From positions 142,566 to 206,565 of the forward strand of contig CAZNZL010000001.1 of assembly GCA_964577565.1 (NCBI GenBank): a stretch of DNA of 64,000 bases. The letters are read 5' to 3'. The notes beneath the pieces are model-generated. The model did not search any database. It was not told the DNA's origin and saw only the letters and a list, made by a program, of their open reading frames with translations. The first letter of the stretch is position 1. Each line of letters opens with the position of its first letter. This stretch comes from an uncultured Candidatus Saccharibacteria bacterium (GTDB taxonomy: Bacteria; Patescibacteriota; Saccharimonadia; Saccharimonadales; JAGQNJ01). A program made the position numbers and the translations under genes. Below, one piece after another: positions 31,076 to 43,488 of this stretch.

Positions 31076-31600
31076 TTAGGCAGTTGCCTTTGCTTCTATA
31101 CCGTCCAGTATTGCATGTAGGTTACCGGAAAGTGCGTTGGTAACATCATTGAGTGGTGAAGCCAATATAGCTATCACTTGGGCAATAAGCTCGTTCTTGC
31201 CCGGTAGGTTTGCTAATGCCTTGACGTCATCAGCACCGAAAAACTGACCTTCTGCCGTGATAGCGCCAACAAATTGTAGGTTTGGGTTGTTTTTGGCGAA
31301 TGCTGCAAGTACCTGAGCAGGTGCTACCTCATCGGCGTTATTAAACGCGTATAGAAGTTGTCCTCGTAAGGCGCTTACGTCGGCAGTTTTGAGCTGCTCG
31401 TTGCTTTCAATTGCCTTAATGACGAGTCGGTTTTTTATTACCTTAACAACAGTGCCGTTTGCTTTCGCGTTACGACGTAGCTCTTGCAAGGCTTTAACGC
31501 CCGTACCTTGATAAGCGGCAGCAACTGTTAACTTTGATTCGCCAAGTAAAGTGGTTACTTCACTTACCACTGACTGCTTTTGTTCTTTTGTTAAAGCCAT
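31076..31600 (-). CDS. rplJ: ribosomal protein L10
   Basis: [12 protein letters not shown]...; SD AAAGGA before ATG 31600 (the track's upstream start is unlikely). Confidence 0.9.
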
Positions 31601-31808
31601 AGGGTATCCTTTACTTGTTATAGTTGTATCGACCAAATTTTAAATGTTCTTTTACCAAAAAAGCCTTTGGCATTCCAAAGACTTTTATACGATTTTTGCT
31701 TAAACGGCTTCTCGTACCTCGGTAGCATTCTTAATTCGCTCGTGAGCGAACGCTACTGTCTTTGGTAAATAACATCTTAATTTTAACAAATTATTATTGT
31801 TTCGTCAA
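31601..31808 (-). promoter_or_regulatory. rplJ promoter plus L10-leader-like 5' UTR with an internal hairpin and U-run
   Basis: Minus strand: TTGACG (31808-31803), 17 nt, TAAAAT (31785-31780). Leader hairpins TTCGCTcacgAGCGAA and CTTTGGaatgCCAAAG followed by T6 (31657-31681). Not checked with a covariance model. Confidence 0.45.
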
Positions 31809-32410
31809 TCGGTGTATTCTTCACACTCAACCGCAACAGTAGCACTGAGCACAGGAGCTGCTCGATGTTGATTTAAGAAATCTAATGTAGATCGCATTTG
31901 TCGTTGATGAGACGTTGGTAACTCAGATTGGATAACGGGGCCGGTGCGGTTACATTCAGTCGACAGGCCTTCGGGTAACTCAAATTGTCGAATAATGGCC
32001 TGGGATTGTTCGTCATAAGAAACGACATGTAAGCCTGGAGTCCATGTGTCCAGTGGATTAAAAGCACGAACGAAGATTACATCATCATTACTGGCTGGCC
32101 GTAAATGCCGACGAAAAATTGGCTGAACGTCCATGGTTGTCCGTTGCAAATCCTCAGACACAACAATCACACGAAACCATGGATGATCATTGCCGGGTTT
32201 TGTGCTACGAGGCCTCCCTTCATTCAAAAGTGCCCACGAGTCGATGGTTCGTTTTTTTGCCTGCCAACCATGTTCTTCAGCCAGTCGGTGTAATTGTTGA
32301 AACGATGCTTCATCGTATTGAGCTACATACTTGCGAGCAGCCTCTGCCAGGCTGTGTGTTCCTTCATCTGTCATATTGTTAGATCGTTCATAACTATGTT
32401 GCGCGGCCAT
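31805..32410 (-). CDS. hypothetical 201-aa protein (orphan)
   Basis: ATG 32410 preceded by GAAGGAA. The stop TGA is embedded in the -35 of the rplJ promoter. Confidence 0.6.
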   Translation of the reverse strand: MAAQHSYERSNNMTDEGTHSLAEAARKYVAQYDEASFQQLHRLAEEHGWQAKKRTIDSWALLNEGRPRSTKPGNDHPWFRVIVVSEDLQRTTMDVQPIFRRHLRPASNDDVIFVRAFNPLDTWTPGLHVVSYDEQSQAIIRQFELPEGLSTECNRTGPVIQSELPTSHQRQMRSTLDFLNQHRAAPVLSATVAVECEEYTD

Positions 32411-32428
32411 TATGTGTTCCTTCAATCT

Positions 32429-32451
32429 AAAAACCCCGCTTGAGCGGGGTT
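32429..32451 (-). terminator. hairpin plus U-run located 18 nt upstream of the ORF start at 32410 (leader terminator/attenuator)
   Basis: Minus strand: aaCCCCGCtcaaGCGGGGttttt. Confidence 0.65.
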
Positions 32452-32548
32452 GTTGCTTTACTTATTTGCTATAACAAACACTACACCCGCTTGCGCGTGT
32501 AATCAATAATCTTAGAGATAATTATTGCTCGTGTCATTACAAGCAACA

Positions 32549-32577
32549 TTTATACGCTTAACTATTGCTATTGTCAA
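32549..32577 (-). promoter_or_regulatory. sigma70-like promoter for the 31805-32410 gene
   Basis: Minus strand: TTGACA (32577-32572), 17 nt, TATAAA (32554-32549). The -35 overlaps the stop codon of the upstream ORF. Confidence 0.55.
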
Positions 32578-32873
32578 GCAGGTAGATTGAGTCGCTGAGC
32601 ATTGGTTGTCATAGTGATAGTGTGCGGTCTGTCACCCTCCTGACTTTCGGACCCGTCAAAAGGCACGATAACGATAGTATCCGAAATAGGTCCTCGAATG
32701 TTGTTATCTGCGGGATATGTTCTTTGTTCGTACATATCAGGGCCAGCTACTTCAACGGTTGTTTTGTGTGTAGCGCCTGCAACTTGCGTGCGCACACCGT
32801 TGGTTATATGTGTAACGTCTACATTGCTTGAACGCTCCAAATAGTCTTTTACTTTTTCTGAAATTGCCATCAT
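32574..32873 (-). CDS. hypothetical 99-aa protein (orphan)
   Basis: SD AAGGAAAC before the ATGATG start; no motif recognised. Confidence 0.6.
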   Translation of the reverse strand: MMAISEKVKDYLERSSNVDVTHITNGVRTQVAGATHKTTVEVAGPDMYEQRTYPADNNIRGPISDTIVIVPFDGSESQEGDRPHTITMTTNAQRLNLPA

Positions 32874-32900
32874 GTTTCCTTATATCAAATTAATTGCGTT

Positions 32901-32982
32901 AAAAAAGCCCAATGTTGATCGGGCTGTGCTGGTCGGTAGAATGTATTTACCGTTCAGGCTTCGCGTATGCTAAGCACAGCCC
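32901..32982 (-). promoter_or_regulatory. leader with mutually exclusive helices (10-bp long-range helix versus a short hairpin plus U6) upstream of the 32574-32873 gene
   Basis: Plus 32921-32930 gggctgtgct is the perfect reverse complement of plus 32973-32982 agcacagccc. The gggct at 32921-32925 is also one arm of the hairpin agccc/gggct (32906-32925), which is followed on the minus strand by T6. Confidence 0.5.
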
Positions 32983-33037
32983 TTTAAGGCCGAGGAGGAG
33001 GTCAAGACCAAGCTGTACTTTATAGATCATTAATGGC

Positions 33038-33065
33038 ATTATAGCAAAATTAGGCTACTTGACAA
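33038..33065 (-). promoter_or_regulatory. sigma70-like promoter for the 32574-32873 gene
   Basis: Minus strand: TTGTCA (33065-33060), 16 nt, TATAAT (33043-33038). Confidence 0.55.
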
Positions 33066-33087
33066 GTTTTTTGAAAGAGCGTACATT
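33059..33087 (+). promoter_or_regulatory. divergent plus-strand promoter sharing the -35 region with the minus-strand promoter
   Basis: TTGACA (33059-33064), 17 nt, TACATT (33082-33087). Confidence 0.45.
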
Positions 33088-33212
33088 AAATACTCGTGAA
33101 TACATTTCAACACATTATTGCTAAGATCTGCATGGGCCGCAACTACGGTTTTGTGCTCGTGGTTGCATAATTTGTTGGAGTAGGTTCGCAAGCAAACAAT
33201 TTGGTAGACAAC

Positions 33213-33246
33213 AAACCGGACTCCAACAACAAGGTCCGGTTTTTTA
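33213..33246 (+). terminator. intrinsic terminator about 150 nt downstream of the plus-strand promoter (end of an sRNA, or leader terminator of the 33373 gene)
   Basis: AAACCGGACtccaacaacaagGTCCGGTTTttt. Confidence 0.7.
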
Positions 33247-33372
33247 CTGCGGCGAATCGATGATTGTCCTCGGTTGAGAATAATCATGGGAGCACCGCTT
33301 CCATATAAGTCTGTCCTGCACTGCGTAGGATAGCCATCCGAAAGGATGACCTTAACAAGGGGGAAGAATAGT

Positions 33373-33567
33373 ATGGTTGACGTGTATCTCGATGAGGTAG
33401 CCGAAGACCGGGTCAGGCGCATGAGTGAAGCAGCGCGCGTTGACCGGGCCATGCGCCGTACTCGTCGCTTGCTCCAGTCACCGATGGCGGCTGATGCAAC
33501 TCTGCGTCAACGCTGGGAGAACAAGCTTCGCAATCAAGAGCGTCAGTTGTCATCACTTTGTCGCTAG
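33373..33567 (+). CDS. hypothetical 64-aa Arg-rich helical protein (orphan)
   Basis: ATG 33373 preceded by AAGGGGGAAG. Sequence MVDVYLDEVAEDRVRRMSEAARVDRAMRRTRRLL... Confidence 0.45.
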   Translation: MVDVYLDEVAEDRVRRMSEAARVDRAMRRTRRLLQSPMAADATLRQRWENKLRNQERQLSSLCR

Positions 33568-33744
33568 ACGACAAAGCTATTGATATGGTGGGGCTGCAGG
33601 GTTTGACCTTGCAGTAAGCAGTTTGTGATAACAACTGTTTTCTGATGATTCATCAGGACCCACCACACCCATACCGCTTACCACTGCTATAACTATAATC
33701 AGACATATTCTTCCCCCTAAATAAACAAAATTAGGAACGTATTT

Positions 33745-33969
33745 ATGAATCAGAATGGGGAATTTGAGGCCACCGGCGATGCAATAATAGAATCTCTAGA
33801 ACGCAACTGGCAAGAGGTGCGTCGGAATGGAATTGTTAGTAGTGTTATAGTTGAGCCCTCAGCTTTAATACTGAGTGTTCGCGATGAAACCTGGGACGGT
33901 ATTAAATCAGGTCGTCTTCAACGAACGGATACACCTCCCGAACACCACTATGTTTATGAAGATGTATAG
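33745..33969 (+). CDS. hypothetical 74-aa protein (orphan)
   Basis: Weak SD (AGGAA). Convergent with the tmk-thyX stop, 2 nt away. Confidence 0.45.
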   Translation: MNQNGEFEATGDAIIESLERNWQEVRRNGIVSSVIVEPSALILSVRDETWDGIKSGRLQRTDTPPEHHYVYEDV

Positions 33970-33971
33970 CT

Positions 33972-36290
33972 TTAAGACTTGTCTAGTTGTTTTAATTTAA
34001 ATTGTGTATATCGTTCAGCTGCCAACCGTGTTAATTCAGGGTCCTCACCCTGATTTACAAACTTCATGGCTTCAGCAATTAATGGATGTACTTCTGCAAG
34101 CTTTTCGTGCATTTGTTGTACGAGTTTTCGATAGCCAGGGTGGCCTTGTGGTGAGGTTCGTAGCTCATGAAGGTGAAATGCTTCGCGGGCATTATACGTT
34201 ACCTTCCAGCGCATTTTATGACCAAGTAGTGTTGCATATTGGGCTTCAAGTTCGTACCCAGCTGCCTGAAGTTCGCTGTAGAGCTGAAGGCTACTATCGA
34301 AACACTTTTCAAACAAATCAACCAACCCGGCCTCTTCAATTAATTTTGGAATATCATAGCCGTAACGCGGGGTTAAATACTGCCATTCAAGGTCATCAAC
34401 GATGCGGTGGCGCTGTAGGTCTCTAAAGATACCGTAGTCACATATTAAATCCCAGCTATAATGAGCTTTTTCTAAGGCTCTGCCTGGCTTGTGCCGGCGA
34501 TTTAACCGCTCACCCATATAACTTCTAAAGATTTCTACGCGCTTATCGTATGGCAAATTAAGGACGCTACGATTTAAGTCTTCCAGTGGTAGGTTGGTGT
34601 GTTCATATAACATATCTGCAACCAAATCGAGCTCGTTGCGTGGCCAATAGCTCGTTAGGGTGACGGCTTCGTTTGCTTCGCTATAATGGCTTGGTACTAC
34701 TTCTTGGGCGTGTTGCTTCATGGCGGCGCGGGTGTTTGACCAATAGGCAATAGTAGCACCGCCTCGATCAGCTTTATCGGCTCGTTCTAAGAAAGTTGAG
34801 ACTACTTTTCGACTTTCATCAAGCAGGGCCTGACCTACGTCACGTGCTTCTGGCAAATCATCGCTAAGTAAGTGCATAATTAAGCTTTCTAAGGCCTGGC
34901 CAGAAGCATAAATGCCAACCGTTGACGTCGTAGCAACGGGCAGAACCGGACGTACGGCATCACATGCCTGAGCTCGGGTAGCTCCCTTCCACGCTAGATC
35001 TTGCTCTTTTTTTGGAACGTTAGAGTTTTTTCGTACGTGATCAGTAAGTTTGTGAACCATTTCAGAATATAAATCAAAAATTTTGTCCATGCTGTCGATG
35101 TATTTTTGTTTTACATCATCATTAAAGTGTTTTGGCGTTAAGTAGCGGTAATTGCCGTTTTTGTCTTTTTGGTCAAAATATATGTAGCGAGTTGACTGTT
35201 CTAAATATGAAGCCAATCGGCCCCACTCAAGCTTTTTGGTTAGCAAATTCGAGGCGTTTTCTACCACAACATGTTGCCCTGCAAGCTGCTGTACGGAGTC
35301 ATCTCCGTAGGCAGTAATAACGCGGCGCAGCAAATCCTTGTCTTTATCTGCTTTATTGGCAAACTCATCTAAGATTGTTATACGCATATCATCGCCGCGA
35401 CGGCTTAAACGCGCCATAGCCGCAGCAATTGTGACCGTGCTTAGCTCGTCGGTAAACGCATAAACATTGTCAGTTGTATTTGTAACGGCTTTTTGAAGAT
35501 ATGCCTTGCCATTATCGGTGATTTCATAGCCGTTTTCAGTCTTACGCAGCAATTCAGTTTCGTCTTGTTGCTTATTGCTGGTTTTTAGCATAGGTTTGAC
35601 TTTCTCCCATATTAAGTTATGAATTTCATCAATACTGAGTAGTTTGCCGTCACGTATACTGTCAATACGCTGAAAGTCTTTTGGAAACAACTCGCATAAA
35701 TCTTTATATACTTCAAGTGAGCGCTCAATGTGTGCTTCATCAGCTTCATGAATGTCTTTTTTGACATGCGTGCTTGAGTTCTCTTTTGCAGCTAGCCGTT
35801 CTTTGATGACTTCAAGTGGTGTATATAAAACAAAGCTTAAGTTTGGACGGGGTATGCCGAGCATTTCAAACTCTAAATTATCGAGCCAAATAAAATACCC
35901 CCGCCGTTCTTCTGGGTTGTTAAATTTTGTACCTTGGTGCGCCATGTTTGAGCCCACATACCGGTCGCACAACACAATTTTACCGGCCCTAAGAGCGTCT
36001 TTGATTTCTTTGGCGGCCTGGTAACGGTCTAAGGCATAAAACATCGAGCTCTTGTACGGCCCTACCTCGTTAGCCTCGCCGTACTTACCTGCGAGGTATT
36101 CGCGAACAAAGTAGCTTGATTCTTCATCGTAACGAGGAAAATGAATATTCAGGATATCATAGCCCTCGTCGGTTAGCTTTTTTTGCAGCGCTTCATACTG
36201 CGTAGATTTACCTGACCCGTCAGTACCCTCAATGACGATGAACAAACCAGTTTCTTCCCCACCCTTGTTAAGTGTGGAAGAATTATTCAT
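33972..36290 (-). CDS. fusion protein: N-terminal thymidylate kinase plus a roughly 540-aa tandem ThyX-like (flavin-dependent thymidylate synthase) module
   Basis: Tmk part: IVIEGTDGSGKSTQ P-loop and CDRYVGSNMAHQ. C-terminal part: LASYLEQSTRYIYF (S..S.RY block) in the first repeat, FRDLQRHRIVD (RHR) in the second, and FHLHELRTSPQGHPGYR. ATG 36290 overlaps the dcd stop by 8 nt. Confidence 0.75.
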   Translation of the reverse strand: MNNSSTLNKGGEETGLFIVIEGTDGSGKSTQYEALQKKLTDEGYDILNIHFPRYDEESSYFVREYLAGKYGEANEVGPYKSSMFYALDRYQAAKEIKDALRAGKIVLCDRYVGSNMAHQGTKFNNPEERRGYFIWLDNLEFEMLGIPRPNLSFVLYTPLEVIKERLAAKENSSTHVKKDIHEADEAHIERSLEVYKDLCELFPKDFQRIDSIRDGKLLSIDEIHNLIWEKVKPMLKTSNKQQDETELLRKTENGYEITDNGKAYLQKAVTNTTDNVYAFTDELSTVTIAAAMARLSRRGDDMRITILDEFANKADKDKDLLRRVITAYGDDSVQQLAGQHVVVENASNLLTKKLEWGRLASYLEQSTRYIYFDQKDKNGNYRYLTPKHFNDDVKQKYIDSMDKIFDLYSEMVHKLTDHVRKNSNVPKKEQDLAWKGATRAQACDAVRPVLPVATTSTVGIYASGQALESLIMHLLSDDLPEARDVGQALLDESRKVVSTFLERADKADRGGATIAYWSNTRAAMKQHAQEVVPSHYSEANEAVTLTSYWPRNELDLVADMLYEHTNLPLEDLNRSVLNLPYDKRVEIFRSYMGERLNRRHKPGRALEKAHYSWDLICDYGIFRDLQRHRIVDDLEWQYLTPRYGYDIPKLIEEAGLVDLFEKCFDSSLQLYSELQAAGYELEAQYATLLGHKMRWKVTYNAREAFHLHELRTSPQGHPGYRKLVQQMHEKLAEVHPLIAEAMKFVNQGEDPELTRLAAERYTQFKLKQLDKS

Positions 36291-36987
36291 ATTTAATACC
36301 TTTAATGGCCTCCGGCTTGATTCTCGTGTCTTTGTACGCACGTGGCAGCATTTGATCCGGGCTCCAGGCTGAAACAATACTTTCAATATTGTTACTAGTG
36401 TTTGACTGATATTTGCCGCTCAATTTTTTATACTCTTGGTCAACGGGCCCTGTTTCGTAAAAGACCATTTGTGCAATACGTTCGCCTACCGGTAAGACGA
36501 CACTTTCATGTTGGTTCATGTTGTAGATCTCCATGGTCCACCTATTAACATAACCCGGGTCGCCCCAACCGGCATCAAGGCAAACTGCTACACCGTTTCT
36601 GCCCCATGTGCTTCGAGCCTGCATAGTGCTTGTTCCTGGTGCTTTGATACCAATAAATTCATGAGTATGAGCCAATATGCGCTCGTGCGGCCGCAACACA
36701 ATAATAGGATGGTCTGGTGGAATATTTTTAAATAGAGCGCGCCCGTGAGCTTTTGCCCACTGTTTGTGAATCTCTGCTTTGAACGGGCCGCTAAAATAAT
36801 TATCTACTGACTGTTTATCAAAAGGGTTATAAAACCCACCTTGGCTCGGACGCTCGGTGCGGTAATACCAATAGCCCAACGTAACATCTACGCTGCTGCC
36901 AGCAATGTTTTTCTCGGTATAGGGGTGAAAAACTATATGCCCGTCTTTAACAGCTTTTTTTATTTGTCGGTTACTATATACTCCCAT
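36283..36987 (-). CDS. dcd: dCTP deaminase / dUTPase-superfamily protein
   Basis: SNRQIKKAVKDGHIVFHPY, GSSVDVTLG, ERIAQMVFYE. ATG 36987 with GAGGGAG upstream (the alternative ATG 37014 is possible). Confidence 0.82.
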   Translation of the reverse strand: MGVYSNRQIKKAVKDGHIVFHPYTEKNIAGSSVDVTLGYWYYRTERPSQGGFYNPFDKQSVDNYFSGPFKAEIHKQWAKAHGRALFKNIPPDHPIIVLRPHERILAHTHEFIGIKAPGTSTMQARSTWGRNGVAVCLDAGWGDPGYVNRWTMEIYNMNQHESVVLPVGERIAQMVFYETGPVDQEYKKLSGKYQSNTSNNIESIVSAWSPDQMLPRAYKDTRIKPEAIKGIKYE

Positions 36988-37111
36988 GACTCCCTCGTTT
37001 TCTCTATTGTACACAAGAATGACACCGTAGGGCTAGGGGTAACGAGCATATTACAACATAAACGAACCGCCTGCTTGAAACAGGCGGTCAACCGTTACGA
37101 AAAGTCGATTT

Positions 37112-38026
37112 TTAAACGTCGCTATTATTTACGTGAATACTAGGGCCCATAGTCGTGGTTACAAAAACAGACTGGATGTAGCTGCCTTTTAGGCTGGCCG
37201 GCTTGGCGGTCTTGATGGCGTTTATGATGGCATTGGCGTTTTGCTCTAGATCTTCAGGTTTAAAGCTTGCTTTACCAATGCTTAAATGGATTATGCCGGT
37301 GCTATCTACGCGGTATTCAACCTTGCCTGCCTTGGCTTCTTTAACGGCTGTTGCTACGTCTTTTGTAACCGTGCCGCTCTTTGGGTTTGGCATAAGGCCT
37401 TTAGGGCCAAGTAACCGAGCGTATTTGCCGAGTTTAGCCATCATTTGTGGCGTTGATATTAAAACGTCAAAGTCAAGTTGTTCTTTGTCGAGTTTTTGTA
37501 GAAAGTCATCTGAACCGGTAATATCGGCACCTGCTGCCTGAGCCTTTTTAGCATCGTCAACATCTGCGAATACAGCTACACGTACCGTTCTGCCGCTACC
37601 CGCTGGCAAGGTAACGGTTCCGCGTATATTTTGGTCTGCTTGGCGTGGATCGACACCGAGCTTAATATGAAGCTCTACGCTTGCATCAAACTTGGCAGGA
37701 TTAGTCTTGCCTGCTAGTTCAAGGGCTTCAGCCAGGCTGTATTCTTTGGTTTTATCAATCAACTTAGCTGCTTCTCGAAATTTCTTACCTTTACGTTCTA
37801 AGATAGAACGAGCCGGTTTAACAGGTTGTTTTGGCTTAGCTTTATCAGTCTCTTCTGTAGCGTTTTCTTTGCGTGCTTCTTTGGCTTGCTTTTCTTCAGC
37901 TTCTTTAAGAGCTTTTGTACTGCGCTTTCCGGCTTTTGCGGTAGTAGCAGCTTTTGGCGTTTCTTTTACCTCAGCAACCTGTGCTGCTGTTTCTTCTTTA
38001 GTTTGCTCTTTCTTGGCTTCTGCCAT
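37112..38026 (-). CDS. rplA: ribosomal protein L1 with a roughly 75-aa Lys/Glu/Ala-rich N-terminal extension
   Basis: Core [13 protein letters not shown]...[24 protein letters not shown]...; SD AAAGGAG before ATG 38026. Confidence 0.92.
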
Positions 38027-38153
38027 AACTTCTCCTTTCGTGGTGCAAACATCTGTCAACGTGGCAGACTCCCACAGTTTAATGTAATTATTATAACATC
38101 GAATTTAAAACTATTCTAGTGTTTCAGTTGTTCGCAACGTTTTATGTGCTTTT

Positions 38154-38441
38154 TTAACTTGCATCACCCATGTCGCGATATTTTTGAAGGTACTCTCGCA
38201 GTAGATGCGCAGCTTGATAACTTTCACCTATTGTTGCCTGTTCATGCCAGCGAACATATGTCTCTATGCTTGGAACCTTAATTTCATGTGCAGGGACATC
38301 AGGTCTTCCAACCGACGGCACTGAGCGTATAAGCGCATAATACAATTGACGGTCTTGTTCGGTAAAAAGAAGATCAGGTCGAGCTTTTTCAAGCTCGGTC
38401 ATAGGTTGAATTTTACCATCTAATTGACCGGCGTACTGCAC
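38154..38441 (-). CDS. hypothetical 95-aa protein, third gene of the cassette inserted between rplK and rplA
   Basis: GTG start overlaps the upstream TAG by 1 nt (TAGTG). Helical; no motif recognised. Confidence 0.5.
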   Translation of the reverse strand: MQYAGQLDGKIQPMTELEKARPDLLFTEQDRQLYYALIRSVPSVGRPDVPAHEIKVPSIETYVRWHEQATIGESYQAAHLLREYLQKYRDMGDAS

Positions 38442-38659
38442 TATTGATCAAGCTCTTGCGGACTTCCCGTTTTTTCTTTTATAAAGCCAGTAAGTTGCGC
38501 AACTTGATCATCCGTGAGGATCAGTGAACCAATTTCATATCGTCGTGCTATATCTAAGAGTGCGCGTTTCTCCTCTCCTTCGGCCCATGCCCTAATTGCT
38601 GGTGAATCTGGACTAGCATCGGGTGCTCGACTATAACGTACAATTCCATCGCTTGCCAT
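38441..38659 (-). CDS. hypothetical 72-aa protein, second gene of the cassette
   Basis: ATG lies 9 nt after the upstream stop, with AGGAGA in the spacer. Confidence 0.5.
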   Translation of the reverse strand: MASDGIVRYSRAPDASPDSPAIRAWAEGEEKRALLDIARRYEIGSLILTDDQVAQLTGFIKEKTGSPQELDQ

Positions 38660-38668
38660 AATGATCTC

Positions 38669-39007
38669 CTATCTTTCTTCGGTTGATAATTGGTTTAGGC
38701 CTGGAGCTGGCTGGTCGAGGCCAACAACAGACTGCAATAGCTCAGGGCTAACATCTTTACGCGGAACGATTTCAAACATCTCGCCGCCGCTTCTACCTAA
38801 ACCTGCTGGGCGTACAAAAAAGGCTTGGGGCTCACCAGATCCACCCGTATCAAGCGTCAAGGCCTCTTGTGGATGGGTTACATCTACGATGGTTACCTGT
38901 CTAATCGCACGTAAAAATCCTGTATCTACCCAACCAAATGCACCAGGAGCAAAAGAGCGAACTTTATCAACTAACTCTACTGCTGAGCGTTCTGGGCTTC
39001 GCGACAT
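38669..39007 (-). CDS. hypothetical 112-aa protein, first gene of the cassette
   Basis: ATG lies 4 nt after the rplK TAA; a GAAGG SD lies inside the rplK 3' end. Confidence 0.55.
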   Translation of the reverse strand: MSRSPERSAVELVDKVRSFAPGAFGWVDTGFLRAIRQVTIVDVTHPQEALTLDTGGSGEPQAFFVRPAGLGRSGGEMFEIVPRKDVSPELLQSVVGLDQPAPGLNQLSTEER

Positions 39008-39011
39008 AGTT

Positions 39012-39443
39012 TTAACCTTCTACTTCTACTCCCATTGAGCGAGCGGTTCCGGCAACCATTTTCTTAACGGCCTCGACATCATCGGTGTTCATGTCATTAG
39101 CTTTCGTTTGAGCGATTTCAGTTAACTGTGCATCATTCAGTTTTTTTGCAACCTTTTCACTGTTGGGCTTACCAGAGCCTTTATCGATGCCGAGTTTGGC
39201 ACGAATCATGTCGTCAGTTGGTTGGCCAACAACCCTAAAATCCATACTACGATCATCATAGATGGTAATATGAGCAGTTACCGTAACATTGCCCATGTCA
39301 CGAGTTTGTTCGTTGAATGGATTAACAAAATCCATCATGTTAACACCGTACTGACCAAGTGTGCTACCTACAGGAGGGCCTGCACTGGCTTTGCCAGCTG
39401 GTATCTTCATCTTTAGATTAGCTTTAACTTCTTTTTGTGCCAT
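39012..39443 (-). CDS. rplK: ribosomal protein L11
   Basis: KMKIPAGKASAGPPVGSTLGQYGVNMMDF; SD AAAGGAA before ATG 39443. Confidence 0.95.
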   Translation of the reverse strand: MAQKEVKANLKMKIPAGKASAGPPVGSTLGQYGVNMMDFVNPFNEQTRDMGNVTVTAHITIYDDRSMDFRVVGQPTDDMIRAKLGIDKGSGKPNSEKVAKKLNDAQLTEIAQTKANDMNTDDVEAVKKMVAGTARSMGVEVEG

Positions 39444-39503
39444 CGTTATTTCCTTTGCATATTGTATCGCTGAAGCATGCGATGTAATGTGCGTAACTTT
39501 ACT

Positions 39504-39532
39504 ATTATAACAAAAACTACCCCTGTTGTCCA
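39504..39532 (-). promoter_or_regulatory. near-consensus promoter for rplK
   Basis: Minus strand: TGGACA (39532-39527), 17 nt, TATAAT (39509-39504). The -35 lies inside the last codons of the inserted ORF 39517-39774. Confidence 0.5.
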
Positions 39533-39774
39533 GTGTGATGATGTCTTGGGTTATCTGGATTTCTATCATCATCTAAAGGGAGGAATTTACCCACCGTGCG
39601 CATTTTGTCTGATATATCCCACATGCGTGGGTCTCCTGACCTAACTGCATCCATAAATTGGGCATACAATTCTTGCCAATAGGCTTCGGTAAAGGCTCCA
39701 TCGGTTGGGTCTCTCAAAAAATTTGCTTCTGCTATTTCGGCAAAAGTTGGTAATGAGCTTTCAGGCGTAGACAT
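39517..39774 (-). CDS. hypothetical acidic 85-aa protein inserted between nusG and rplK
   Basis: ATG lies 5 nt after the nusG TAG; no motif recognised. Confidence 0.55.
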   Translation of the reverse strand: MSTPESSLPTFAEIAEANFLRDPTDGAFTEAYWQELYAQFMDAVRSGDPRMWDISDKMRTVGKFLPLDDDRNPDNPRHHHTGQQG

Positions 39775-39779
39775 GATGA

Positions 39780-40322
39780 CTACACTCTCTTAACTTGTAG
39801 AGAGTCAAGTTCAACCGGTGTTTCGCGGCCAAACATGTTAACAAGTACTTTAAGCTTGCCTTTTTGAGCGTCAATCTCGTTAATAGAGCCGTCAAAACCC
39901 TTAAACGGACCATCAACAATGTTAACAACCTCGCCAATGCGGTAGTCAATCTTATGCTTGGGTTCGGCGCGGCCCATACGCTTCATGATTTTTTCAATCT
40001 CAGCCTCGCTTACCGGGCTTGGTTCAGTACCACTACCAACAAAGCCGGTTACGCTTGGCGTGTTTCGTACAATGTACCATGCATCTTCGGTTAGCTTCAT
40101 TTGTACCAACACGTATCCTTGAAAAATGCGTTTTTCTACTACTTTACGTTTGCCGTTTTTAACCTCGATCATTTTTTCTTTTGGTACTAATACCTGAAAA
40201 ATTTTGTCTTTCATGTCTAAACTGTCGGCACGCTGCCGAATGCTTTCAGCAACTTTTTCTTCATAACCGCTATAAGTATGAATCGCATACCATTGCTTTG
40301 ATGAATCATAACGTTTATTCAT
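39780..40322 (-). CDS. nusG: transcription termination/antitermination factor NusG
   Basis: KQWYAIHTYSGYEEKV NGN domain; KOW region GEVVNIVDGPFKGFDGSI. Confidence 0.95.
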   Translation of the reverse strand: MNKRYDSSKQWYAIHTYSGYEEKVAESIRQRADSLDMKDKIFQVLVPKEKMIEVKNGKRKVVEKRIFQGYVLVQMKLTEDAWYIVRNTPSVTGFVGSGTEPSPVSEAEIEKIMKRMGRAEPKHKIDYRIGEVVNIVDGPFKGFDGSINEIDAQKGKLKVLVNMFGRETPVELDSLQVKRV

Positions 40323-41986: not shown

Positions 41987-42685
41987 TTAAGTGGTAATAA
42001 TGTCGGGTGAGTACTGCTTCAATGTACGCCTTAGTTCGCGATACTGCGGTTGGTGCACTTCTACCAGCTGCCAAAAATCTTTGCTGTGATTCATATGAAC
42101 CGTATGGGCCAGTTCATGTATAATTACGTAATCGATCACCTCCCACGGCAGCTGAATTAGAAATAAACTAAAGGCTAGATCTTGTTTGCTGCTGCAACTC
42201 CCCCAGCGACTGCGGAGGTTTTTAATCTCAATTTTGCCCACCGAAAAATGAAAGCGTTCAGCAAACTGTCTCACTCGCGGTAGAATGAGCTCTTCGGCTT
42301 CTATCATTAAAGCGCGTCGAGTATAGAGTTCAAGCTTTTTTTGGACTACTGCAGACTCGATGGTGGCATCAATCGGCACCTTAACATTAATTTTCTCCGG
42401 TAAAATCCTACCAGAAATTCGATTGCCACTACCATGGGCAATATGTAAAGAATGCCGTTTGCCAATCTGTACACCATCAGCTAATAAATGTTTAGTTTTG
42501 CGGTGTTGATTGATCCAGTCGACACGCTGTAAAACATATAAAAGCGCAGCCTTATAAGGCATCCAATTGGGCATCGTAATACGAACATCATTACCATTTA
42601 TGCGAATACGCACATTACGTGCACCACGCCGTTTATAAAATGGAAGCTCACCAACGCCTTCTACATGAAGAATCTTTTGTGGCAT
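41987..42685 (-). CDS. M48/YgjP-like (DUF45) metal-dependent hydrolase
   Basis: WGSCS...IHELAHTVHMNHS (HExxH). Confidence 0.78.
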   Translation of the reverse strand: MPQKILHVEGVGELPFYKRRGARNVRIRINGNDVRITMPNWMPYKAALLYVLQRVDWINQHRKTKHLLADGVQIGKRHSLHIAHGSGNRISGRILPEKINVKVPIDATIESAVVQKKLELYTRRALMIEAEELILPRVRQFAERFHFSVGKIEIKNLRSRWGSCSSKQDLAFSLFLIQLPWEVIDYVIIHELAHTVHMNHSKDFWQLVEVHQPQYRELRRTLKQYSPDIITT

Positions 42686-43341
42686 TATCGAATAGTAATG
42701 TTGCGACGTGTCATGTCGACTCGACCAGCTGTCGGCACAAGATTTACAAGGCCAGGTTTAACAACATTTTGAGATACATTTTCAGGTTTAATAAGTTTAA
42801 GATCATAAAACTTACGCGCTAACGCACTGCGCTGCATAGGGAACGAGTGCTTTCCGCTTAAAACGATGTAGTCTTCATCGTGCCCGGGGTTTTGCATATG
42901 TCCGGTAATTTCGTCAAATAATGGTCGATCAATAACCTGGGCAACTTTGTCTTCACTTTTTCGCCTATCACGTTGAGAGGCGCGCGCAAAGGCGCTTTCT
43001 GGGTCAATTTGTAGCCACACAAGAACATGCTGCGCCTTCTTTTTACGCGCTATGTCGCGCAAGATCCGGCGTTGACTTTTTTTGATTGCATTGGTATCAA
43101 AAATAACGCTTACTCCCGCCTCTAAAAACTCCTCTGTCATATACTCCATGAGGCGATCTACAATTTCGTTTTCGGCTTTGTCATATCGTGGCGTTTCAAA
43201 AAGCTGGTACCGTATTTTGTCACCGTATACATGGGCAGCTTTTATGGTGCTACCCATATTTTGTGCAAAATAAGTTTTACCAGACCCAGGAAAGCCGTAC
43301 AGCATAATAAGTGTCGGTTTGCTCAACTCGAGTTTTGCCAT
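42685..43341 (-). CDS. P-loop kinase-like ATPase (AAA_33/zeta-toxin-like fold)
   Basis: LYGFPGSGKTYFA Walker A; ATG 43341 is preferred over the upstream start at 43389. Confidence 0.65.
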   Translation of the reverse strand: MAKLELSKPTLIMLYGFPGSGKTYFAQNMGSTIKAAHVYGDKIRYQLFETPRYDKAENEIVDRLMEYMTEEFLEAGVSVIFDTNAIKKSQRRILRDIARKKKAQHVLVWLQIDPESAFARASQRDRRKSEDKVAQVIDRPLFDEITGHMQNPGHDEDYIVLSGKHSFPMQRSALARKFYDLKLIKPENVSQNVVKPGLVNLVPTAGRVDMTRRNITIR

Positions 43342-43488
43342 GGTACTTATTGTATAACAGATTATCAAGTTTATGAAAAGTATTGTCACATCGGTGACAA
43401 AAAATATACAGGATGTAATTCGGTAGTTTACTTATTCATGAAAATTCATGAGTCATTAATGAAGGAGCGTAGCCCTGTTTGTTAGAAC

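What the first reader, a model, noticed from the sequence alone, without database searches (positions are those of the whole stretch)
33972..36987. dcd followed by a thymidylate kinase fused to a duplicated ThyX-like module
A single 772-aa ORF combines two parts.

- A complete Tmk: P-loop GTDGSGKST and a DRY-type motif, CDRYVGSNMAHQ.
- About 540 aa that read as two tandem ThyX-like repeats.

The ThyX signature looks split between the repeats. The first repeat keeps the S..S.RY block (LEQSTRY) but has WGR where RHR is expected. The second repeat keeps QRHR but not the serine block.

The ORF overlaps dcd by 8 nt (ATGAATAA). One transcription and translation unit would therefore channel dCTP to dU-nucleotide, then dTMP, then dTDP. 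I cannot confirm that either a covalent Tmk-ThyX fusion or a pseudo-dimeric ThyX has been described.
Basis: partly seen in the sequence, partly recalled or inferred. Interest (0 to 1): 0.6.

Follow-up and report, generated by a model that had tools for sequence, protein, structure and literature searches.

The report
Thymidylate kinase fused to double ThyX
A Saccharibacteria gene joins thymidylate kinase to a two-copy, Chlamydia-type thymidylate synthase (ThyX) whose catalytic residues are divided between the copies; it is a real, conserved but uncharacterised variant of known enzymes.

Summary
On the minus strand, dcd (36283-36987) overlaps by 8 nt (ATGAATAA) a 772-aa ORF (33972-36290). That ORF encodes an intact Mycobacterium-type dTMP kinase domain, a short variable linker, and two ThyX-fold repeats.

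It is not a frameshift artefact. Full-length relatives occur in at least 120 protein clusters and in 253 stretches of species-representative genomes. The best 80 are nearly all labelled Saccharibacteria, and dcd lies upstream in 76 of those 80.

The double ThyX is not new in itself. It belongs to the roughly 530-aa "long ThyX" family that includes the Chlamydia trachomatis and C. pneumoniae enzymes, and the C. trachomatis protein has been assayed as active.

The split signature holds in all 68 diverse members examined. Repeat 1 keeps the dUMP-loop residues (E..S.RY plus the Arg147 equivalent). Repeat 2 keeps RHR, N.R, the Arg174 equivalent and His. Canonical ThyX draws these residue sets from different subunits, so a homodimer should form a pseudo-tetramer with two live and two degenerate sites. 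That would give one synthase site per fused kinase.

Two non-orthologous Tmk types are fused to the same module at syntenic loci, and one relative has overlapping but unfused tmk and thyX. I found no paper on the fusion. Moderate interest.

The parts
36283..36987 (-). dcd, a dCTP deaminase-like gene of 234 aa from the ATG. An alternative GTG start lies at 37014.
   Evidence: Pfam PF22769 DCD at E 1.8e-33. NCBIfam TIGR02274 scores 90.7 bits, just under the 92.8 cutoff. The best solved relative is dCTP deaminase 4xjc at E 1e-14. It lies upstream of the fusion in 76 of 80 related loci.
36283..36290 (-). 8-nt overlap ATGAATAA between the dcd stop (TAA) and the fusion start (ATG)
   Evidence: Sequence read directly. 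Overlaps of 4, 8 or 10 nt occur in 27 of 56 related loci evaluated.
33972..36290 (-). Complete ORF for the Tmk::ThyX-ThyX fusion protein: 772 aa plus stop
   Evidence: Full-length homologues at 66-100% identity occur in at least 120 clusters and in 253 genome stretches.
35580..36248 (-). dTMP kinase domain (aa 15-237), Mycobacterium-type. P-loop at 36201-36227 and the DRY block at 35934-35969.
   Evidence: Pfam PF02223 at E 5e-21. NCBIfam PRK07933 scores 141.9 bits. M. tuberculosis TMPK 1g3u matches at E 7e-19 with FPRY, ALDR, DRY and SN aligned. Foldseek matches to solved Tmk structures have TMt 0.73-0.85.
35550..35579 (-). Inter-domain linker (aa 238-247, SNKQQDETEL)
   Evidence: It is the least conserved segment, with mean top-residue frequency 0.34. 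pLDDT is below 50 at aa 239-243.
35469..35549 (-). N-terminal extension of the double-ThyX module (aa 248-274). Stand-alone long ThyX proteins have it too.
   Evidence: Alignment A2 and the alignment to C. pneumoniae ThyX, which starts at module residue 9.
34776..35468 (-). ThyX repeat 1 (aa 275-505), the 'dUMP-loop' repeat. It contains GDDSV (35292-35306), WGRLASYLEQSTRY (35184-35225) and R447 (34950-34952).
   Evidence: The profile hits M. tuberculosis ThyX residues 37-228 at E 2.7e-13. E364, S366, R368 and R447 are invariant in 95 fusions and 68 diverse tandem proteins, and Y369 is nearly so (95 of 95 and 66 of 68). The His of RHR is never present.
34665..34775 (-). Inter-repeat connector (aa 506-542), predicted to include a long helix
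   Evidence: Secondary structure of the AF2 models. Conservation is lower, at 0.64.
34056..34664 (-). ThyX repeat 2 (aa 543-745), the 'RHR/FAD' repeat. It contains RDLQRHR (34404-34424) and NAREAFHLHELRTSPQGH (34140-34193).
   Evidence: The profile hits H. pylori 3ah5 at E 8.6e-7 and T. maritima 1kq4 at E 7e-5. R627, R629, R702, R711 and H717 are invariant, and H628 is present in 66 of 68. There is no Ser/Arg dUMP loop.
33972..34055 (-). C-terminal helix tail (aa 746-772) and stop codon
   Evidence: AF2 predicts a helix at 751-771. The tail is conserved among the fusions, at 0.79.
37065..37089 (-). Terminator-like hairpin between rplA and dcd, suggesting dcd plus the fusion may be a separate transcription unit
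   Evidence: 11-bp stem with 6 GC pairs and a T-rich tail. This is a consensus match only.

Best explanation
**What the gene encodes.** It encodes one polypeptide carrying two consecutive steps of dTTP synthesis.
- The C-terminal 525 aa are a Chlamydia-type 'long' flavin-dependent thymidylate synthase, an internally duplicated ThyX.
- The N-terminal 237 aa are a dTMP kinase.

**How the synthase site is built.** In canonical ThyX homotetramers each active site uses three subunits.
- One subunit gives RHR and the Arg174-type arginine.
- A second gives the N.R arginine.
- A third gives the Ser88/Arg90/Tyr91 dUMP loop.

Here the two repeats have each kept only one side of that division.
- Repeat 2 supplies RHR, N.R, Arg711 and His717.
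- Repeat 1 supplies Glu364, Ser366, Arg368, Tyr369, Asp444 and Arg447.

**Inferred assembly.** A homodimer would reproduce the tetramer as a pseudo-tetramer with two complete sites and two degenerate ones. Most likely the two repeat-2 domains face each other across the dimer axis. That gives one synthase site per chain, matched 1:1 to one fused kinase. Tmk enzymes are themselves homodimers.

**Inferred pathway.** The upstream, translationally overlapping dcd supplies dU-nucleotide. The unit would then run dCTP to dU-nucleotide to dTMP to dTDP.

**Shown versus inferred.**
- Shown: domain identities, residue conservation, synteny, and membership in the Chlamydia-type family.
- Inferred: the quaternary arrangement, the number of live sites, activity of both enzymes, and any channelling.
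For: **Domains.** Pfam and NCBIfam hits. M. tuberculosis TMPK aligns with all dTMP-site motifs. PDB profile hits exist for each repeat. The AF2 model of the module has pLDDT 90.3 and pTM 0.88, so the two repeats pack confidently into one body. All top Foldseek hits are ThyX-family proteins.

**Complementary conservation.** The tallies over 95 fusions and 68 diverse tandem proteins show it. The two repeats are equally conserved, 0.82 against 0.83, so repeat 1 is not decaying.

**Subunit origin of canonical site residues.** The review PMC6514825 assigns RHR and Arg199 to subunit A, Ser71 and Arg190 to subunit B, and Arg87, Ser105, Arg107 and Tyr108 to subunit C.

**Arrangement of repeat 2.** Repeat 2, not repeat 1, keeps the equivalents of Glu58, Asn163 and Arg165. 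This favours a repeat 2-repeat 2' pairing.

**Family membership and activity.**
- The module is 31% identical over 522 aa to C. pneumoniae ThyX, at E 1e-75.
- C. trachomatis ThyX is 529 aa and belongs to the Chlamydia long-ThyX group recovered in the same search.
- The C. trachomatis enzyme was purified and assayed (PMC3498832).
- C. trachomatis lacks ThyA (PMC4913046).

**Selection for the linkage.**
- The fusion occurs in 253 genome stretches.
- dcd is adjacent in 76 of 80 loci.
- A classical TIGR00041-type kinase is fused to a module about 66% identical, at a syntenic dcd-fusion-rplJ locus.
- An unfused tmk/thyX pair overlaps by 8 nt downstream of rplA.
Against: - No coordinates of the models were available, so the intrachain repeat interface and the dimer geometry could not be inspected.
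- The Ser71-type residue of the 'second subunit' role is kept in repeat 1 (S332), not in repeat 2 (R604). The assignment of that role is therefore not clean.
- One subclade, which includes Chlamydia, still has N.R in repeat 1. The 'degenerate' sites may retain some function there.
- Several invariant repeat-1 residues are not explained by the model: GDDSV, K352, E355 and R358.
- The NCBIfam equivalog cutoffs for both tmk and thyX are not reached.
- Neither activity has been measured for any fused protein.
- Channelling is unsupported beyond the covalent link.
Confidence: 0.7

Rival explanations
1. The fusion has no kinetic meaning. Overlapping tmk and thyX genes were joined by a small indel, and the product is simply two independent enzymes on one chain. 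It is kept because it is harmless or fixes their stoichiometry.
For: An unfused tmk/thyX pair overlapping by 8 nt in different frames exists at the same position after rplA (L081). A single-base indel would fuse it. The linker is short and unconserved.
Against: - Two non-orthologous kinase types, 24% identical to each other, are fused to near-identical ThyX modules at syntenic loci. This implies repeated fusion or replacement with the link retained.
- The fusion persists across hundreds of species.
- Active sites would be matched 1:1 under the two-site model.
Confidence: 0.3
2. The double ThyX module in this lineage is not a dTMP synthase. It would be another flavin-dependent pyrimidine-modifying enzyme, such as a PolB-like UMP methylase or an enzyme acting on a different nucleotide. 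Alternatively, repeat 1 is a purely regulatory pseudo-domain.
For: - TIGR02170 (thyX equivalog) scores 61.7 bits, below the 87.9 cutoff.
- No single repeat carries the full ThyX motif.
- PolB (4p5b) is among the structural matches.
Against: - All residues that contact dUMP and activate it in canonical ThyX are invariant when the two repeats are taken together.
- The gene sits between dcd and a fused dTMP kinase.
- The family includes the Chlamydia enzyme, which has been assayed as ThyX in an organism that lacks ThyA.
Confidence: 0.07
3. A sequencing or assembly frameshift has artificially joined two separate genes.
For: Adjacent unfused tmk and thyX genes do exist in one relative.
Against: - The same reading frame is continuous in at least 120 protein clusters drawn from NCBI, JGI, ENA and Logan assemblies.
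- It is also continuous in 253 genome stretches.
- Conserved protein sequence runs on both sides of the junction.
Confidence: 0.01

Closest known systems
Chlamydia trachomatis / C. pneumoniae ThyX (CT632, CPn_0746; 529-531 aa 'long' FAD-dependent thymidylate synthase)
   Same: - The alignment is colinear over both repeats: 31% identity over 522 aa, E 1e-75.
- The division of motifs is the same: SPLEKSTRY in repeat 1, and RHR plus NAR...ELRS..QGH in repeat 2.
- The C. trachomatis enzyme is experimentally active (PMC3498832).
   Different: - It has no kinase domain.
- Repeat 1 of the Chlamydia subclade still has N-G-R where the window has S-G-Q.
- I found no paper that describes its tandem nature or the split active site.
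Canonical ThyX homotetramers (T. maritima TM0449, M. tuberculosis Rv2754c, H. pylori, PBCV-1 A674R)
   Same: The fold matches (Foldseek TMt 0.60-0.74). The catalytic residue set and the inter-subunit construction of the active site also match (PMC6514825).
   Different: They have one domain per chain, a contiguous RHRxxSxxxxSxR motif, and four equivalent sites per tetramer. The window protein has two diverged domains per chain (16% identity in the hhalign profile-profile comparison) and is predicted to have two sites per dimer.
Mycobacterium tuberculosis thymidylate kinase (TMPK, Rv3247c; PRK07933)
   Same: It is the best solved match to the N-terminal domain, at E 7e-19. The P-loop Asp/Lys, FPRY, ALDR, DRY and SN motifs all align.
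   Different: It is a free-standing enzyme. Y103 corresponds to H118 here. The NCBIfam equivalog cutoff is not reached (141.9 against 193 bits).
Bifunctional DHFR-TS of protozoa and plants (own knowledge)
   Same: Two consecutive enzymes of thymidylate metabolism are covalently fused into one dimeric protein. It is the textbook case for substrate channelling.
   Different: The enzymes are unrelated (ThyA and DHFR). The fused steps are dTMP synthesis and folate recycling, not dTMP synthesis and phosphorylation.
Engineered ThyX heterotetramers (Leduc et al. [quoted passage not shown]
   Same: The principle is the same: ThyX chains each defective in a different part of the site can together build working sites.
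   Different: That was an experimental mixture of point mutants. Here the complementation is fixed by gene duplication and fusion.

Membership tests
dTMP kinase (Tmk; PF02223 / TIGR00041 / PRK07933) | P-loop GxxxxGK[ST] with the preceding Asp | tested here: met
   EGTDGSGKST at aa 21-30. D24, G27 and K28 are invariant in 95 fusions.
dTMP kinase (Tmk; PF02223 / TIGR00041 / PRK07933) | DR(Y/H/F) motif and the dTMP-binding residues of M. tuberculosis TMPK (FPRY, ALDR, SN) | tested here: met
   D109-R110-Y111, F51-P52-R53-Y54, D88-R89 and S114-N115 align to 1g3u. R110, F51, P52, D88 and R89 are invariant.
dTMP kinase (Tmk; PF02223 / TIGR00041 / PRK07933) | Score above the curated family cutoff | tested here: inconclusive
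   Pfam 75.6 bits exceeds the cutoff of 27. NCBIfam equivalogs fall short: PRK07933 141.9 against 193, and TIGR00041 77.3 against 83.25.
dTMP kinase (Tmk; PF02223 / TIGR00041 / PRK07933) | Phosphorylates dTMP to dTDP | not testable with these tools
   Needs an enzyme assay or complementation of a tmk mutant.
Flavin-dependent thymidylate synthase ThyX (PF02511 / TIGR02170) | ThyX fold | tested here: met
   Pfam Thy1 scores 123.3 bits against a cutoff of 24.8, with two stretches. Foldseek probability is 1.00 to T. maritima, PBCV-1 and T. thermophilus ThyX. PDB profile hits exist for both repeats.
Flavin-dependent thymidylate synthase ThyX (PF02511 / TIGR02170) | Contiguous ThyX motif RHRxxSxxxxSxR in one domain | tested here: not met
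   Repeat 1 reads WGRLASYLEQSTRY and has no R-H. Repeat 2 reads RHRIVDDLEWQYL and has no Ser/Arg loop. The full residue set exists only across the two repeats.
Flavin-dependent thymidylate synthase ThyX (PF02511 / TIGR02170) | NCBIfam equivalog score | tested here: not met
   TIGR02170 scores 61.7 bits against a cutoff of 87.9. The model is built on single-domain ThyX.
Flavin-dependent thymidylate synthase ThyX (PF02511 / TIGR02170) | Homotetramer with four FAD/dUMP sites at three-subunit interfaces | not testable with these tools
   Only monomer models without coordinates were available. A homodimeric pseudo-tetramer with two sites is inferred.
Chlamydia-type long (tandem) ThyX | Colinear similarity over both repeats to the 529-531 aa Chlamydia enzymes | tested here: met
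   31% identity over 522 aa, E 1e-75, against C. pneumoniae CPn_0746. Cluster names confirm C. trachomatis, C. muridarum and C. pneumoniae.
Chlamydia-type long (tandem) ThyX | Complementary motif pattern: dUMP loop in repeat 1; RHR, N.R and R...H in repeat 2 | tested here: met
   The pattern is present in 68 of 68 diverse members and in the C. pneumoniae alignment.
dCTP deaminase (Dcd; PF22769 / TIGR02274) | Family score, and the distinction between the monofunctional and the dUMP-forming bifunctional type | tested here: inconclusive
   Pfam 116 bits exceeds the cutoff of 27. TIGR02274 scores 90.7 against 92.8. PDB hits include both monofunctional (4xjc) and bifunctional (1ogh, 2qxx) enzymes. 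The type was not resolved.

The most novel reading that the evidence does not exclude
The Tmk::ThyX-ThyX protein is a dedicated 'thymidylate module' in which one composite synthase site per chain feeds one kinase site directly.

- The link was selected at least twice, with two unrelated Tmk types. One is Mycobacterium-like and may have come from the actinobacterial hosts of Saccharibacteria.
- The two degenerate ThyX sites of the pseudo-tetramer still carry invariant residues (GDDSV, K352, E355, R358). They may have been re-used for something new, such as a regulatory nucleotide site, a separate NADPH or folate site, or a docking surface for the kinase.
Probability: 0.2. Interest if true: 0.7.

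Novelty: new variant of a known kind. Interest (0 to 1): 0.45.

Why it matters
- **A natural experiment on ThyX.** ThyX is an antibacterial target because humans lack it. All solved structures and mechanistic work use single-domain homotetramers with four identical sites. The long tandem form, which Chlamydia depends on, has no solved structure. It appears to have split the active-site residues between two diverged domains. This gives a natural test of which subunit contributes what, and a different interface to target.
- **Relevance to Saccharibacteria.** These bacteria have minimal genomes and depend on hosts for nucleotides. A conserved dcd plus Tmk-ThyX unit shows which part of dTTP synthesis they keep for themselves. 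It is also a clean candidate for testing metabolite channelling.
- **Evidence of selection.** The presence of two different kinase types on the same synthase module suggests the covalent link is selected, not accidental.

Tried and rejected
- **Frameshift artefact.** Rejected, because the fused frame is conserved in hundreds of independent assemblies.
- **Single-sequence PDB search.** phmmer of the C-terminal 526 aa found no ThyX even at E 10. Profiles were needed.
- **Foldseek with the full-length model.** It returned only Tmk in the top 50. The module had to be modelled alone.
- **L081 as the direct ancestor of the window's fusion.** Rejected. Its Tmk is the classical TIGR00041 type, only 24% identical to the window's kinase. 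It fits the other fusion class instead.
- **Literature.** Nine searches found nothing on a Tmk-ThyX fusion, tandem ThyX or ThyX in Saccharibacteria. Reads of PMC5954106, PMC9931769, PMC2826268, PMC12455944 and PMC11974145 also found nothing. Leduc et al. 2004 (PMC409905) is not held.
- **The Chlamydia lead.** It began as a sequence I recalled from memory and used only as a search query. The evidence is what the database returned.
Full report
**1. What is in the sequence**

On the minus strand, an ORF runs from the ATG at 36290 to the stop at 33972 and encodes 772 aa. The mechanical ORF list extends it to a TTG at 36386 (804 aa). That start would add 32 codons inside dcd. It is not supported by homologues, which are about 770-780 aa with a nearly invariant M1.

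The upstream gene is dcd, at 36283-36987 from its ATG. It ends in TAA inside the string ATGAATAA that also holds the fusion's ATG, giving an 8-nt overlap.

**2. Domain identities**

*Database matches.*
- Pfam gives Thymidylate_kin at aa 20-211 (E 5e-21).
- Pfam gives Thy1/ThyX at E 1.4e-35 with two matched stretches.
- The dcd product matches the dCTP-deaminase family at E 2e-33.

*The kinase domain.*
- Its best match is the mycobacterial-type dTMP kinase model PRK07933.
- Its best solved relative is M. tuberculosis TMPK, at E 7e-19.
- The P-loop, FPRY, ALDR, DRY and SN motifs all align.
- Foldseek on the full-length model returns only thymidylate kinases, with target-normalised TM-score (TMt) 0.73-0.85.

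*The C-terminal 525 aa.*
- As a single sequence it finds nothing in the PDB.
- As a profile of 68 diverse relatives, its first half matches M. tuberculosis ThyX residues 37-228 at E 2.7e-13.
- Its second half matches H. pylori and T. maritima ThyX at 1e-6 to 1e-5.
- The two halves align to each other in the expected register at only 16% identity (hhalign E 6.6e-4).
- An AlphaFold model of the module alone is confident, with pLDDT 90.3 and pTM 0.88. It shows the same order of secondary-structure elements twice.
- Its top 50 PDB matches are all single-domain ThyX-family proteins, namely ThyX enzymes and the UMP/dUMP methylase PolB.

The linker between kinase and synthase (aa 238-247) is the least conserved and least confident part of the protein.

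**3. It is a real gene**

Full-length relatives at 66-100% identity with the same Pfam pair fill the top 120 protein clusters, drawn from NCBI, JGI, ENA and Logan. In the species-representative genome collection, 253 stretches encode a relative. The best 80 are nearly all labelled Saccharibacteria or Saccharimonadales. This rules out a sequencing frameshift.

dcd lies immediately upstream in 76 of 80 loci. In 27 of 56 loci evaluated, the dcd stop and the fusion start overlap by 4, 8 or 10 nt.

**4. The double ThyX is a known, large family**

A search of 1.8 billion representatives with the module gave 3625 hits at E up to 1e-3 and 718 at E up to 1e-30. They are a mixture of stand-alone proteins of about 520-560 aa and fusions of about 640-800 aa. 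Stand-alone members are abundant in Acidimicrobiia, other Actinomycetota and Acidobacteriota, and are routinely named FAD-dependent thymidylate synthase.

I recalled that Chlamydia ThyX is unusually long, so I used a remembered sequence purely as a search query. The database returned 528-545 aa proteins named ThyX from these taxa:
- C. trachomatis, C. muridarum, C. pneumoniae, C. abortus and other Chlamydiales;
- a few Verrucomicrobia and Victivallaceae.

The window's module aligns colinearly with C. pneumoniae CPn_0746 at 31% identity over 522 aa, E 1e-75.

The C. trachomatis enzyme has been cloned, purified and assayed as a ThyX (PMC3498832). C. trachomatis has no ThyA or Tdk (PMC4913046). 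An earlier remark that chlamydial ThyX was left out of phylogenies for lack of identity (PMC6171736) fits this. No solved structure is a tandem ThyX: every PDB ThyX chain found is at most 270 aa.

**5. The split signature and what it implies**

I mapped the residues through the PDB alignments. T. maritima numbering is the PDB chain index minus 12, checked on R74, Q75, R78-R80, S83, R147, N163, R165, R174 and H178.

| Canonical residue (T. maritima) | Repeat 1 | Repeat 2 |
|---|---|---|
| R74 | K352 | R623 |
| R78-H79-R80 | W356-G357-R358 | R627-H628-R629 |
| S83 | S361 | D632 |
| E86 / S88 / R90 / Y91 | E364 / S366 / R368 / Y369 | no equivalent loop |
| E144 / R147 | D444 / R447 | not conserved / Q684 |
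| N163-x-R165 | S463-G464-Q465 | N700-A701-R702 |
| N169 | not mapped | H706 |
| R174 | H473 | R711 |
| H178 | not mapped | H717 |

Across 95 fusions and 68 diverse tandem proteins the pattern is constant:
- E364, S366, R368 and R447 in repeat 1 are invariant, and Y369 is nearly so (66 of 68).
- R627, R629, R702, R711 and H717 in repeat 2 are invariant, and H628 is present in 66 of 68.
- Repeat 1 never has the His of RHR.
- Repeat 2 never has the Ser/Arg loop.
- The two repeats are equally conserved, 0.82 against 0.83.

The review PMC6514825 states how one canonical site is built:
- RHR and Arg199 (T. maritima R174) come from subunit A.
- Ser71 and Arg190 (T. maritima R165) come from subunit B.
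- Arg87, Ser105, Arg107 and Tyr108 (T. maritima S88, R90, Y91) come from subunit C.
- The two FADs of subunits A and B face each other.

The residues each repeat has kept are therefore exactly those that different subunits contribute. If repeat 2 plays A and repeat 1 plays C, symmetry leaves two possible arrangements. Repeat 2 also keeps the Glu58, Asn163 and Arg165 equivalents, so the more economical one has the two repeat-2 domains of a homodimer as the A-B pair and the repeat-1 domains as C and D. That gives two complete sites and two degenerate ones. This step is inference, because I could not inspect coordinates.

Some points do not fit neatly:
- The Ser71 equivalent sits in repeat 1.
- Several invariant repeat-1 residues (GDDSV, K352, E355, R358) are unexplained.
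- The Chlamydia subclade keeps N-G-R in repeat 1.

**6. The kinase fusion**

Among 38 representatives of at least 640 aa:
- 17 carry a kinase domain 46-63% identical to the window's (Mycobacterium-type, FPRY/FPQY).
- About 14 carry one only 21-27% identical (P-loop GPEGVGKT, motif REPD).

The second type is the classical dTMP kinase. P0122 scores 109 bits on TIGR00041, above the 83.25 cutoff. Yet its ThyX module is about 66% identical to the window's. Its locus is also syntenic: dcd with an 8-nt overlap, then the fusion, rplJ, rplL and dnaX.

A stand-alone relative (L081) has secE-nusG-rplK-rplA, then a 211-aa classical tmk, then a 537-aa tandem thyX. The two genes overlap by 8 nt (TTGCCTGA) in different frames. 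Another stand-alone relative has dcd and tmk nearby but not adjacent.

So the dcd, tmk and thyX genes are clustered across this group. A one-base change could fuse tmk and thyX. The same synthase module carries two unrelated kinases in different lineages. That argues the covalent link is selected.

The likely benefits are fixed 1:1 stoichiometry with the single synthase site per chain, and possibly handing dTMP straight to the kinase. Tmk enzymes are homodimers (established knowledge), which fits a dimeric assembly. Channelling itself is untested.

**7. Comparison and novelty**

The parts are known enzymes, and the tandem synthase is the Chlamydia type. I could not find three things described in nine literature searches and several full-text reads:
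- the covalent Tmk-ThyX fusion;
- its two kinase versions;
- the explicit reading of the tandem enzyme as a fixed complementary heterodimer.

Automated annotation already names the architecture. I rate it a new variant of a known kind, of moderate interest.

Noticed in passing
window 31076-40322 (minus strand): The gene order is nusG, rplK, two small ORFs, rplA, dcd, tmk::thyX, about 2.3 kb, then rplJ. The thymidylate genes therefore sit inside the usually contiguous rplKAJL ribosomal-protein cluster. rplA is found upstream in 69 of 80 related loci and rplJ downstream in 67 of 80.
   Followed up: partly
window 31805-33970: The stretch between the fusion and rplJ holds only small or unannotatable ORFs: 206 aa with no Pfam hit, plus ORFs of 99, 137 and 74 aa. 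These have no detectable similarity in 79 of 80 related loci; only L001 matches, weakly. It looks like a lineage-specific variable spacer.
   Followed up: partly
window 37112-38059 (rplA) and 39012-39572 (rplK): Ribosomal protein L1 carries a Lys/Ala/Glu-rich N-terminal extension of about 115 aa before the Pfam L1 domain, which starts at aa 118. L11 has an extension of about 50 aa.
   Followed up: no
L084 932-3277 (P0122) versus window 33972-36290: At a syntenic dcd-fusion-rplJ locus, the ThyX module is about 66% identical but the kinase domain only 24% identical and of a different Tmk family (TIGR00041 against PRK07933-like). This points to domain replacement or independent fusion.
   Followed up: partly
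L083 1-7409 (P0140, an 802-aa divergent fusion): Immediately upstream of this fusion lie an rve-family integrase, DHFR, a dCMP-deaminase-like gene and a ThyA gene. This organism therefore seems to carry both thymidylate synthase types, possibly on an inserted element. rplJ, rplL and dnaX follow downstream.
   Followed up: no
L030 and L059: Contigs carrying a typical Saccharibacteria fusion at 65-67% identity are deposited under 'Nevskiaceae bacterium' and 'Candidatus Limnocylindrales bacterium' MAG names. This is probably binning contamination.
   Followed up: no
window 37065-37089 (minus strand): A strong terminator-like hairpin (11-bp stem, 6 GC pairs, T-rich tail) sits between the rplA stop and the dcd start. 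No sigma-70-like promoter was detected in the 97-nt gap.
   Followed up: no
window 42685-43389 (minus strand): A separate 234-aa P-loop kinase-like ORF matches AAA_33, KTI12 and Zeta_toxin. It is not a second Tmk.
   Followed up: no
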